Source of the DNA: the human T2T-CHM13v2.0 reference genome, Homo sapiens
Direction: 5' to 3' (one strand)
DNA: 64,000 bases
Assembly: GCF_009914755.1 (NCBI RefSeq)
Contig: NC_060927.1
Numbering within the stretch: the stretch's first letter is position 1; every line of letters begins with the position of its first letter. Of this stretch, positions 38,556 to 40,979 are shown one piece after another. The notes below the pieces were generated by a model. It saw nothing but the letters and a program-made list of their open reading frames with translations. It did not search any database and was not told where the DNA came from. The translations under genes and the position numbers were made by a program.

Positions 38556-38734
38556 TTATAGTGCATATTTTTCTCTTAATTGTGGACATAAGAGGGAAAT
38601 GTTCAATATTTCATCATTAATTATGTTGTTAGCTGGTAGGTTTTTTTAGATACTCTATCGAATTTCTGTTCCCAATTTCTATTGCTGAGAGTTTTATCAA
38701 ATGCTGGTTCTTAAATCTTTAAGAACCAACATTT

Positions 38735-39042
38735 GGCCGGGCACAGTGGCTCAGGCCTGTAATCCCAGTACTTTGGGAGGCTGAGGTGTGCGGATCACCT
38801 GAAGTCGGGAGTTCGAGACCAGCCTGACCAACATGGAGAAGCCCCGTCTCTGCTAAAACTACAAAATTAGCTGGGTGTGGTGGTGCGTGCCTGTAATCTC
38901 AGCTACTCGGGAGACTGAAGCAGGAGAATCGCTTGAACCCGGGAGGCAGAGGTGGCAGTGAGCCGAGATCAAGCCACTGCACTCCAGCCTAGGTGATAGA
39001 GCAAGACTCTGTCTCAAAAAAAAAAAAAAAAAAAAAAAAAAA
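38735..39042 (+). mobile_element. Chimeric AluS (Sp-like head, Sx-like tail)
   Basis: Head 'gtcgggag..cctgaccaacatggagaa'; tail 'gcagtgag..ccactgc..ggtgatagag'. Confidence 0.93.
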
Positions 39043-39056
39043 GTCAAATGTTGGTT

Positions 39057-39339
39057 TTATTTTTGAGACGGACCTTCACTCTTGTTGCTCAGGCTGGAAT
39101 GAAATGGCACGATCTCGGCTCACCATAACCTCTGCCTTACAGGTTCAATTGATTCTCCTGCCTCAGCCTCCTGAGTAGCTGGGATTACGCCACCACACTT
39201 GGGTAATTTTTGTATTTTTAGCAGAGACGGGATTTCACCATGTTGGCCAGGCTGGTCTCGAACTCCCAATCTCAGGTGATCCGCCCACCTCAGCCTCCCA
39301 AAGTGCTGGGATTACAGGTGTGAGCCACTGTGCCCGGCC
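39057..39339 (-). mobile_element. Chimeric AluS (Sx-like head, Sp-like tail)
   Basis: Tail 'ttcactcttgttgc..aatggc..ctcacc'; head 'tttcaccatgttggccagg'. Confidence 0.93.
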
Positions 39340-40979
39340 TGACTTTCTTGATTTTCTTAATTGTACACTTATTTTCTATGTCATTGATTTGTATCCTTTA
39401 CTATTTATTGTCTTCTATTCTCTTTGGCATTATTTTGCTGTTCTTTTTCTAACTTCTCAAGGTGGGAACTTAGATTGATTTTAAACCATTCTTCTCTAGT
39501 ATAGTCTTTTAAGGCTATAATTTTTCCTTTAGGCACAGCTTTTGCTTTTTTCCACAATTTGGTATATCACATTTTCATCATTTACCTCAAAATATTTTCT
39601 AATCTATTTTGATTTTTTTTTGAATTTGAGGTATATATTATTATGTGTATACTGCTTCTAGTGTGGGGACTTTTATAGTTACATAGCTATCTTTCTGTTA
39701 TTTATTTCTAGTTTAATTTCATGGTACTTAAATAATATACATTGTATGATTTCAGAGAAATGTGTTGGGATGTATTTTATCATAAGGCCTTGTATATGCT
39801 CTGTTCTGGAAAATGTTCCATTGCGCTTGAAAGTAACGTGATTTTGTTTTTACAGTTGTTGGTTGTAGTGTTCTGTATATGTCAATTCGGTTGACTTGAT
39901 TGTGTCATTCAGATTTTCTCTTTTTCTTACTTTTTTTGGTCTGCTATCAGTCACAGAGTATCCAGTCTTCATTTATGTTTGTGGGTTTGTCCATCCGTTC
40001 TGTCAACTTTTACTTTAAATAATAAATATGCAAATAATTATTAGATGTATATAAATCTGGGACTCTATATATTTGTGCCAAAATGATTCTTTTGTCTTTG
40101 TAAAATATCTTTCTTTATCTCTAGTGATACTTCTTCCCTTAAAGTCTACTTTAATGTTAACTTTACTACTTTAACTTTCTTTTAGTGTTTGCATGGTGTA
40201 TCATTTTCCATCCTTTTTTCACCTTCTCACGCTCTTTATAGTTAAAGGTGTATCTCTTGCAGATAGCATATAACTTGTCTTTCTCTTCTTTTCAATTTGG
40301 TCTAACAACCTGTGGGTTACCATTTCCAGAACGATGCAACAAACACGTTTACTCTTTCCACTGCTGTTTATTTCTTTCTAGCAATTCTGTGCTTCCAGTT
40401 GTCATCATTTTCTTCTCTCTGAAGGACTCTTTCCAAATTTTTTGTAGTGTTCTATCATCCCACAGGATGTCTCCTTTCATAATTCTAGATTTTGGTAGAC
40501 CTGCTAATAAAAATACTCAAGAAGTAATCTCCACAGAAACTTCCCCCTTCATCAAATGAAGTAGCCGGGTAAAGCCTTTATTTGAATGATTCAAGGTAAC
40601 ACCAATACTAAGATATTCCAGAAGAGGATTTGGCTTCTCAAACAAGTCTTGGTTTTATTTTCTCTTGCATGGACATAATTCCATTGTCCAGGGCTTAGAA
40701 AGGCTGATGTGATGGGTGGAAATATATTATTGGAGACCAGTTTATAAGTGGTGAGTTCCTTGGTGAAAAGTTTTTATGATGATGCCTTTTACCTATGCAG
40801 TCTTATAAATACAGTCATGTGTGGATTGTGAGTATTTGGACAGCAAGGACCCAGGAGGAAGCTTTTATCTTCATATTTGGCAGTAGCAAGTATTCAGTAA
40901 GTAGAGAGAAGGGGTATTTTCATATTCTGAAGGCTAGCTATTGGTAAGTTCCCTTTCCTGTTTTGTGTGTGAGGAGACA

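What the first reader, a model, noticed from the sequence alone, without database searches (positions are those of the whole stretch)
38721..39349. Tail-to-tail Alu pair with swapped TSDs: a completed Alu-Alu micro-inversion
Seen: Alu1 (+, 38735-39042) is preceded by 'aaccaacattt' but followed by 'aaagtca'. Alu2 (-, 39057-39339), read on its own strand, is preceded by 'aaagtca' (reverse complement of tgacttt at 39340) and followed by 'aaccaacattt'. Each head's TSD therefore sits on the other Alu's tail. Flipping the spacer 'gtcaaatgttggtt' (39043-39056) restores both TSDs and an empty site 'aagaaccaacatttgactttcttgatttt' that reads as continuous antisense L1. The Alus also look reciprocally chimeric (Sp head with Sx tail, and Sx head with Sp tail), although one head position in Alu2 is Sp-like. 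Inference: a crossover within the Alus inverted both tails and the spacer. Known: inverted Alus only about 14 nt apart are depleted and unstable in the genome and make strong ADAR hairpins.
Basis: partly seen in the sequence, partly recalled or inferred. Interest (0 to 1): 0.7.

Follow-up and report, generated by a model that had tools for sequence, protein, structure and literature searches.

The report
Small inversion between two back-to-back Alus
Two Alu repeats that sit tail-to-tail only 14 bases apart in a CHCHD6 intron have swapped their rear halves and flipped the short DNA between them, a tidy but ordinary example of a known kind of repeat-driven inversion.

Summary

- **Layout:** Alu1 (+, 38735-39042) and Alu2 (-, 39057-39339) are full-length, tail-to-tail and 14 nt apart.
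- **Spacer:** with the three preceding A's it is the exact reverse complement (17 of 17) of the sequence made by joining the two outer flanks. Old L1 copies elsewhere in the genome read that joined sequence without a break.
- **Chimerism:** I defined lineage-diagnostic positions from 324 other Alus of the same assembly. Alu1 has a derived ("Sp-like", name recalled) head and an ancestral tail, seen in 1 of 59 head-matched Alus. Alu2 is the reciprocal, seen in 0 of 60 tail-matched Alus.
- **Exchange point:** Alu positions about 128-223 (38863-38956 and 39125-39210), so about 170-350 bp were inverted.
- **Kind:** retrotransposon recombination-mediated inversion (Lee et al. 2008), near the small end of their size range and not in their chr3 list.
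- **Extra finding:** the two heads are more alike than Alu1's head is to any of 205 other Alus. This suggests added gene conversion and explains the one "wrong" position in Alu2.
- **Hairpin:** the RNA fold is very strong (-448 kcal/mol).
- **Not testable here:** age, polymorphism and RNA editing.

Verdict: new member of a known kind, modest interest.

The parts
38698..38735 (.). Near-perfect palindrome in the L1 flank (18-nt arms, 2-nt loop). The right arm contains the Alu1-head TSD. The junction of a roughly 0.7-kb internal L1 deletion lies at its centre.
   Evidence: I4, 94% complementary. Searches place the left flank about 720 bp away from the right flank in L1 coordinates.
38724..38734 (+). 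TSD-A, the copy at the head of Alu1 (AACCAACATTT). Its partner now lies reverse-complemented inside the spacer.
   Evidence: (I14).
38735..38862 (+). Alu1 head segment. It carries the derived lineage states ('Sp-like', name recalled) at window 38807, 38827, 38837 and 38862.
38863..38956 (+). Interval in Alu1 that contains the exchange point. The state at 38886-38888 (CGT) weakly favours 38863-38887.
   Evidence: CGT is not among the six commonest states listed for the 83 derived-lineage Alus (at most 2 of 83) and occurs in 5 of 89 ancestral-type Alus.
38957..39042 (+). Alu1 tail segment of ancestral ('Sx-like') type (38977, 38995, 38998, 39005) with a pure A27 tail (39016-39042). It is inferred to have belonged originally to the right-hand Alu.
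39043..39056 (-). The 14-nt spacer, which is native L1 sequence in inverted orientation. Together with 39040-39042 it is the reverse complement of TSD-A overlapping TSD-B (17 of 17).
39057..39124 (-). Alu2 tail segment of the derived lineage (39124, 39104, 39086, 39082, 39075), with tail A5TA4. It is inferred to have belonged originally to the left-hand Alu.
39125..39210 (-). Interval in Alu2 that contains the exchange point. It includes an 8-bp deletion near 39190 that removes the mid-element diagnostic columns.
39211..39339 (-). Alu2 head segment of ancestral type at 39211, 39237 and 39247. It carries the derived G at 39267 and a rare G at 39222, both shared with Alu1.
39340..39346 (+). TSD-B, the copy at the head of Alu2 (TGACTTT). 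Its partner now lies reverse-complemented directly after Alu1's A-tail (39040-39046).

Best explanation
Two Alus inserted independently, tail-to-tail, into one spot of an old antisense L1 in a CHCHD6 intron.
- The left Alu belonged to a derived S lineage (Sp-like by recall) and had TSD AACCAACATTT(G).
- The right Alu was of ancestral S type (Sx-like by recall) and had TSD TGACTTT. That TSD overlaps the first one by two bases, so the second Alu landed in the TSD of the first.

Later a homology-driven exchange took place between the two inverted Alu bodies, at Alu positions about 128-223. It was either an intrachromatid crossover or a double template switch at a stalled fork. It inverted everything between the exchange points, about 170-350 bp: both rear halves, both A-tails and the 14-17 nt of unique L1 sequence.

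The result is two reciprocal chimeras whose TSDs match crosswise, plus a spacer in the wrong orientation.

Shown: the anatomy, the inverted spacer and the reciprocal lineage states.
Inferred: the order of events and the exchange mechanism. Also inferred is a separate short gene-conversion tract, Alu positions 1 to about 73, running from Alu1's head into Alu2's head.

The inversion leaves arm-to-arm complementarity unchanged, so it is probably neutral. The pair still forms a roughly 290-bp hairpin in the pre-mRNA.
For: 1. **Spacer.** Spacer plus AAA is the reverse complement of left-flank end plus right-flank start, 17 of 17. There is a 12-nt perfect inverted match (I14). The exact 14-mer is unique in the window and lies on the minus strand.
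2. **Native order of the flanks.** L1 paralogs L003 and L009 read the joined flanks continuously. The 29-nt empty site is found at 27 of 29 matches in 2 other genomic places, with 0 for the control. The right flank translates to a recognisable L1 ORF2 stretch.
3. **Control pair.** A tail-to-tail pair with a 21-nt gap (L025) has its TSD in the normal direct orientation.
4. **Linkage in unselected Alus.** In 205 unselected Alus the derived head and derived tail states are tightly linked. Alu1's combination (head 3/3, tail 0/4) occurs in 0 of 205.
5. **Head-selected sample.** Of 59 Alus chosen only for Alu1's 35-nt head (2,212 genomic hits), 53 have at least 3 of 4 derived tail states and 1 has none.
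6. **Tail-selected sample.** Of 60 Alus chosen only for the derived tail (4,249 hits), none combines G at column 398 with the ancestral head states G/T at columns 141/155, as Alu2 does. That is 0 of 60, and 0 of the 21 that carry 398=G.
7. **Unbiased column scan.** It gives one switch per element at the same place: Alu1 is derived at 108, 141, 155 and 229 and ancestral at 450-490; Alu2 is ancestral at 141, 155 and 229 and derived at 398-490.
8. **Published definition.** Mismatched TSDs plus chimeric elements is how RRMI is defined, with sizes of 166 bp-81 kb and most Alu cases under 1 kb (PMC2603318, passages).
Against: - No outgroup or second human haplotype could be examined, so the pre-inversion allele is inferred, not seen.
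- Alu2 carries the derived G at column 108 (39267), which a single clean exchange does not predict.
- The mid-element diagnostic columns are deleted in Alu2 and ambiguous in Alu1, so the exchange point is only bracketed.
- Chimerism alone is not proof. Six of 59 head-selected Alus have at most 2 of 4 derived tail states, four of them at most 1. One of those, L152, has a normal direct TSD and no reciprocal neighbour.
- A natural type with an ancestral head and the TAAA tail exists: 12 of 60, and 8 of 205.
- An intramolecular crossover needs a loop of only 170-350 bp, which is tight for DNA. The stiffness argument is made for shorter inversions in PMC8755829 and favours a replicative route.
- Subfamily names (Sp, Sx, Sc) are recalled and come from no call.
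Confidence: 0.85

Rival explanations
1. Only the spacer was inverted. This would be a microinversion using the A-tail and T-tail or other short inverted repeats, by template switching or microhomology-mediated break-induced replication. On this reading the two Alus were already mosaics, either as natural subfamily intermediates or as products of partial gene conversion from other Alus.
For: - Microinversions of 17-33 nt flanked by inverted repeats of 3-75 nt are documented between human and chimpanzee, 59 cases (PMC8755829, abstract and passages).
- Hybrid Alus made by partial gene conversion are documented, 69 partial cases (PMC8230782, abstract and passages).
- A mosaic like Alu1 with an intact TSD exists (L152).
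- An ancestral head with a TAAA tail occurs in 12 of 60 tail-selected Alus.
Against: - It needs two independent rare mosaics that happen to be reciprocal and adjacent. Alu1's type is 1 of 59 and 0 of 205. Alu2's type is 0 of 60.
- The neighbour cannot be the conversion donor for either, because each carries the opposite state.
- The homologous tails offer only about 9 nt of pairing, against about 280 nt for the bodies.
Confidence: 0.06
2. There was no inversion. The spacer would be a direct-orientation copy of the left arm of the upstream palindrome (38696-38709). For example, it could be the TSD of a larger insert consisting of 25 nt of 5'-transduced sequence plus Alu1, placed next to an existing Alu2.
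For: The spacer matches 38697-38709 in direct orientation at 12 of 13 (D5), and 12 of 14.
Against: - The match to the inverted flanks is perfect (14 of 14, or 17 of 17 with the A's), against 12 of 14 here.
- The supposed transduced 25 nt restores the native L1 reading exactly where L1 paralogs have it, which an imported flank would not do.
- Alu2 would be left without any TSD.
Confidence: 0.02
3. Assembly artefact: the inner part of a near-palindrome was misoriented during assembly.
For: Inverted repeats can confuse assemblers. Lee et al. excluded one locus as an assembly error in the chimpanzee draft (PMC2603318).
Against: - The whole structure is about 600 bp, which is shorter than single long reads (inference).
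- A misorientation would have to break inside both Alus at homologous points.
- Both chimeras carry many private substitutions, consistent with long residence.
Confidence: 0.02

Closest known systems
Retrotransposon recombination-mediated inversion, Alu-RMI (Lee, Han, Meyer, Kim, Batzer 2008, PMC2603318)
   Same: An inverted pair of Alus spans the breakpoints, both become front/back chimeras, their TSDs no longer match each other, and no DNA is gained or lost. Most Alu-RMI events are under 1 kb.
   Different: - This case is inferred from internal evidence only, with no chimpanzee comparison.
- It is not among the four chr3 loci of their table (33.8, 50.9, 160.6, 167.8 Mb hg18).
- The unique inverted DNA is only 14-17 nt, and the two TSDs overlap.
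- The total inverted length of about 170-350 bp sits at the lower end of their 166 bp-81 kb range.
Microinversions flanked by inverted repeats (PMC8755829)
   Same: A very short unique segment is precisely reverse-complemented between inverted repeats. Template switching is a candidate mechanism.
   Different: Those repeats are 3-75 nt and the inverted segments 17-33 nt. Here the repeats are roughly 300-nt Alus, and the exchange points lie 70-180 nt inside them, as shown by the swapped lineage markers.
Partial Alu-Alu gene conversion giving hybrid elements (PMC8230782; Aleshin and Zhi 2010, as cited there)
   Same: Hybrid 5'/3' Alus are produced, and neighbouring Alus become homogenised. This probably explains the extra similarity of the two heads here.
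   Different: Gene conversion is non-reciprocal and does not move TSDs or invert a spacer. Here the exchange is reciprocal and the spacer is flipped.
Closely spaced inverted full-length Alu pairs, 'Alu pair exclusions' (Cook et al. 2011, PMC3215922)
   Same: This is a tail-to-tail full-length pair with a spacer of at most 24 bp. In that class inverted pairs are about 13 times rarer than direct pairs (I:D 0.073-0.076).
   Different: This pair has survived. Its arms are only about 83% alike overall (43 differences in 254 compared columns). From recall of Lobachev et al. 2000 (paper not held), that level of divergence should make it far less fragile.

Membership tests
Retrotransposon recombination-mediated inversion (RRMI) | Two elements of one family in inverted orientation span the two breakpoints. 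| tested here: met
   Alu1 is on the + strand and Alu2 on the - strand, both full length. The arms are 91% (132 nt) and 82% (98 nt) complementary.
Retrotransposon recombination-mediated inversion (RRMI) | Neither element has its own matching TSDs, and the TSDs match crosswise. | tested here: met
   AACCAACATTT lies before Alu1 and, on the other strand, after Alu2. TGACTTT lies beyond Alu2's head and, reverse-complemented, after Alu1's tail. The control pair L025 has a normal direct TSD.
Retrotransposon recombination-mediated inversion (RRMI) | Both elements are chimeras, each the front of one parent and the back of the other. | tested here: met
   Lineage states switch reciprocally and once in each element. 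Alu1's type is 1 of 59 and Alu2's type 0 of 60 in matched samples. One exceptional column (108) in Alu2 is attributed to gene conversion.
Retrotransposon recombination-mediated inversion (RRMI) | The intervening DNA is inverted relative to the ancestral state seen in an orthologous, uninverted locus. | not testable with these tools
   No other primate or human assembly is available. As a surrogate, L1 paralogs show that the flanks are in native order and the spacer is inverted.
Tight tail-to-tail full-length Alu pair (Cook et al. 2011) | Both Alus are full length, the A-tails face each other, and the spacer is at most 24 bp. | tested here: met
   The Alus are 308 and 283 nt, with a 14-nt spacer.
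ADAR-edited inverted-Alu dsRNA | A long intramolecular duplex in a transcribed region. | tested here: met
   MFE is -448.1 kcal/mol against -197.1 +/- 7.5 for 20 shuffles, z = -33.5. The pair lies in a CHCHD6 intron on the gene's strand (hub annotation).
ADAR-edited inverted-Alu dsRNA | A-to-G mismatches in RNA reads. | not testable with these tools
   No RNA data are available. No paper holds both 'CHCHD6' and 'inverted Alu' (0 hits).
Alu hybrids made by partial gene conversion | Non-reciprocal replacement of a tract, with the TSDs untouched. | tested here: not met
   For the head/tail switch, the exchange is reciprocal and the TSDs are swapped. For the outer heads only, a conversion tract is plausible: 0 of 205 other Alus are as close to Alu1's head as Alu2's head is.

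The most novel reading that the evidence does not exclude
The locus may be a multi-event scar of hairpin-driven instability rather than a single neutral flip. Three things sit within 650 bp:
- the inversion itself;
- the homogenised outer heads;
- a roughly 0.7-kb deletion of flanking L1 whose junction lies at the centre of an 18-nt palindrome abutting the base of the Alu hairpin.

If they share one cause, the site documents repeated break-and-repair at a tight inverted Alu pair. The inner segment might even still toggle between orientations in human populations, unseen by short reads.
Probability: 0.12. Interest if true: 0.55.

Novelty: new member of a known kind. Interest (0 to 1): 0.3.

Why it matters
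It shows that an Alu-Alu inversion can be recognised from one genome alone, using crosswise TSDs, a reverse-complemented spacer and reciprocal lineage markers. It does so at a scale (14-17 unique bases) that alignment-based human-chimpanzee screens are likely to miss.

A systematic scan of tight inverted Alu pairs for this signature could measure how often such pairs flip rather than delete. That bears on why close inverted Alus are depleted.

For CHCHD6 itself no effect is expected. The event is intronic, balanced, and leaves the hairpin's pairing unchanged.

Tried and rejected
I used ungapped 35-nt patterns and small fetched stretches instead.
- **Twin priming or two simultaneous TPRT events at one staggered break.** By reasoning, this gives head-to-head elements with tails outward, not what is seen here.
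- **5' transduction, or the spacer copied from the palindrome's left arm.** Rejected; see the rivals.
- **A single Alu plus a fold-back duplication.** Rejected because the tails differ at 30 of 126 sites and carry different lineage markers.
- **Placing the left flank by tblastn** gave no hit. A nucleotide local alignment then placed it in the L1 RT region.
- **Comparator pair L029** was uninformative, because its spacer is only A/T runs.
- **Neighbours of four other Alu1-like mosaics** (L151-L154). None has a close inverted partner with reciprocal states, and L152 has a normal TSD. Such mosaics are therefore not generally inversion products.
- **Literature limits.** Lee et al.'s supplementary table has no locus near this one. 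The supplement of PMC8755829 is a scanned PDF and could not be read. Lobachev et al. 2000 is not held.
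Full report
**What is there**

Reading 38500-39600 shows a full-length Alu on the + strand (Alu1, 38735-39042), ending in 27 uninterrupted A's. It is followed by 14 nt of non-Alu sequence (39043-39056, GTCAAATGTTGGTT) and then a full-length Alu on the - strand (Alu2, 39057-39339) with a short tail. 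The left flank ends in ...AAGAACCAACATTT and the right flank starts with TGACTTTCTTGATTTT.

The spacer plus the last three A's of Alu1's tail is the exact reverse complement, 17 of 17, of the left-flank end joined to the right-flank start. The repeat finder reports the 12-nt perfect inverted match (I14). The exact 14-mer is unique in the window and lies on the minus strand. With up to 2 mismatches there are 4 hits against 0.80 expected, and 0 of 100 shuffles reach 4.

**Is the spacer really the inverted part?**

The flanks belong to an old L1 lying antisense. The right flank translates, on the minus strand, to a recognisable ORF2 stretch and hits the window's long L1 copies. A search of the window's own assembly with the right flank found only diverged L1 paralogs (79% identity or less) besides the locus itself, so there is no duplicated copy of the locus.

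Two of the three paralogs that reach the junction (L003, L009) read ...AAAGA(A/G)CCAAC...TTTG... straight through, in the order of the two outer flanks. The third (L007) ends there. So the flanks are in native order and the spacer alone is turned round.

A control tail-to-tail pair from chr19 with a 21-nt gap (L025) shows the ordinary state. Its minus-strand Alu has its TSD in direct orientation on both sides. A second control pair (L029) has only A/T runs between the Alus and says nothing.

**Are the Alus chimeric?**

I could not bring in consensus sequences, so I defined diagnostic positions empirically.
- From 293,063 bases of the same assembly (200 kb of C19, the window, and nine L1-paralog loci) I took 207 near-full-length Alus, including the two, and aligned them.
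- Three head columns (108, 141, 155) and four tail columns (398, 450, 478, 490) carry minority states that are tightly linked.
- Among the 205 other Alus, the 2 with all three derived head states have 3 or 4 derived tail states. Of the 6 with two derived head states, 5 have 3-4 derived tail states and 1 has none. Of the 162 with no derived head state, 130 have no derived tail state.
- Alu1 is head 3/3 and tail 0/4, seen in 0 of 205. Alu2 is head 1/3 and tail 4/4, seen in 1 of 205.

To enlarge the sample without bias, I searched the genome for a 35-nt stretch of Alu1's head that spans the three columns. It has 2,212 exact hits. I fetched the first 60 listed places. One (L038) dropped out because my script's word was shifted by one base. 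Of the other 59, the derived-tail counts were 0:1, 1:3, 2:2, 3:27 and 4:26.

For the reciprocal test I used a 35-nt derived-tail word taken from stored locus L059, with 4,249 hits, and fetched the first 60 places. The heads were G-A-A in 21, A-G-T in 12 and A-A-A in 10, with the rest mixed. None of the 60, and none of the 21 with G at column 398, combine that G with the ancestral G/T at columns 141/155 as Alu2 does.

An unbiased scan for every column that separates 83 derived-lineage Alus from 89 ancestral-type Alus added column 229 and columns 297-299. The map is:

| Element | Derived ("Sp-like") | Ancestral ("Sx-like") | Unreadable or ambiguous |
|---|---|---|---|
| Alu1 | 108, 141, 155, 229 | 450, 473, 478, 490 | 297-299 ambiguous (CGT) |
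| Alu2 | 108, then 398, 450, 473, 478, 490 | 141, 155, 229 | 297-299 deleted |

There is one switch in each element, in the same interval, and the two are reciprocal. In window coordinates the exchange lies in 38863-38956 and 39125-39210. The inverted piece is therefore about 170-350 bp. By recall the derived lineage is AluSp-like, the ancestral type AluSx-like, and the ancestral-head/TAAA-tail type AluSc-like. These names come from no call.

**Results that cut the other way**

- Chimerism alone is not proof. Six of the 59 head-selected Alus have at most 2 of 4 derived tail states, four of them at most 1.
- I fetched the surroundings of four of them. None has a close inverted partner with reciprocal states, and L152 has a normal direct TSD.
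- A natural ancestral-head/TAAA-tail type is fairly common: 12 of 60, and 8 of 205.
- Alu2's derived G at column 108 is not predicted by a single exchange.
- The case rests on the conjunction of crosswise TSDs, an inverted spacer and two adjacent, reciprocal, individually rare mosaics.

**An extra layer: the heads are too alike**

Over the left half, Alu1 and Alu2 differ at 13 of 128 sites. Alu1 differs from the 205 other Alus by a median of 19.8%, and none is as close as Alu2. For the first 70 nt or so the figure is 0 of 199. For Alu2 against the others, 6 of 205 and 1 of 199 are as close. The right halves differ at 30 of 126 sites, which is unremarkable: 165 of 205 other Alus are at least as close to Alu1.

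The two heads also share two rare states. G at column 108 occurs in 11 of 205 others. G at column 181 occurs in 5 of 205, 1 of 59 and 2 of 60. Yet columns 141, 155 and 229 still differ between them.

The simplest reading is a short, possibly patchy gene-conversion tract from Alu1's head into Alu2's head. Homogenisation of neighbouring Alus is described in print (PMC8230782, passages citing Aleshin and Zhi 2010). This part is inference.

**Mechanism**

Lee et al. 2008 (PMC2603318, abstract and passages) define retrotransposon recombination-mediated inversion by exactly these features. The elements at the breakpoints become chimeras, and their TSDs no longer match. Event sizes run from 166 bp to 81 kb, and most Alu cases are under 1 kb.

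Their four chr3 loci lie at 33.8, 50.9, 160.6 and 167.8 Mb in hg18 (supplement). None is this locus, which I estimate from recalled gene coordinates at about 128 Mb in hg18. That absence fits an event older than the human-chimpanzee split, or one their screen missed. It does not decide between them.

A reciprocal intrachromatid crossover and a double template switch during replication give the same product. The stiffness argument for short loops (PMC8755829, passages) leans towards the replicative route for a 170-350 bp loop.

I worked through twin priming and two simultaneous TPRT events at one staggered break. Both give tails-outward arrangements, so they are excluded by reasoning.

**What it does**

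Probably nothing new. The pair lies in a CHCHD6 intron on the gene's strand (hub annotation). The 605-nt stretch folds into one long hairpin: -448.1 kcal/mol against -197.1 +/- 7.5 for 20 shuffles, z = -33.5. Swapping the rear halves leaves head-to-head and tail-to-tail pairing unchanged, so the inversion should be neutral for the hairpin (inference).

Tight inverted full-length pairs are strongly depleted, with an I:D ratio of 0.073-0.076 for spacers of at most 24 bp (PMC3215922, passages). This pair's arms are only about 83% alike. From recall of Lobachev et al. 2000 (not held), that should make it much more stable than identical repeats. Editing could not be tested, and no paper holds both 'CHCHD6' and 'inverted Alu'.

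**Verdict**

The odds are about 0.85 for an exchange inside the Alu bodies and higher for an inverted spacer as such.
- It is a new member of a known kind. It is notable only for its tiny unique segment, its overlapping TSDs, and the fact that it can be read from one genome.
- Age and polymorphism remain open.

Noticed in passing
window 38698-38735: A near-perfect palindrome (18-nt arms, 94% complementary, 2-nt loop) lies directly 5' of Alu1. Its right arm contains the Alu1 TSD, and its left arm is a third copy of the spacer motif (12 of 13). Alignment to the window's long L1 copies places the left flank about 720 bp away from the right flank in L1 coordinates. So a roughly 0.7-kb internal L1 deletion has its junction at the palindrome's centre, at the base of the Alu hairpin. 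It is not resolved whether this is chance, a snap-back repair scar, or linked to the Alu pair.
   Followed up: partly
window 39016-39042: Alu1's A-tail is 27 uninterrupted A's, although both Alus are old (12-23 differences from the sample majority per half). By recall, long pure tails are more typical of young insertions. Alu2's tail is only A5TA4.
   Followed up: no
window about 39190 (Alu2): An 8-bp deletion in Alu2 removes the CpG-rich mid-element block, including diagnostic columns 297-299. It lies inside the interval that holds the exchange point. This may be coincidence or a by-product of the exchange.
   Followed up: no
window 38220-38555: A third, much more diverged Alu on the + strand (67% identity to Alu1) lies 180 bp upstream. 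Alu2 therefore also forms an inverted pair with it, and the region holds three Alus within 1.1 kb of a deleted L1.
   Followed up: no
L152 (G000:C1:9861500-9864200), minus-strand Alu at about 1196-1490: This Alu has the same derived head and ancestral tail as Alu1, but with an ordinary direct TSD and a non-reciprocal neighbour 374 bp away. Such mosaics therefore also arise without inversion, by gene conversion or from a minor source lineage.
   Followed up: partly
L013, L016, L019, L015 (chr19 sample): Several tight tail-to-tail junctions in the 200-kb chr19 sample pair a full Alu with only a 92-116-nt head fragment of an inverted Alu (for example L019:2243-2652 and L013:4412-4823). These could be truncated insertions or remnants of hairpin-associated deletions.
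   Followed up: no
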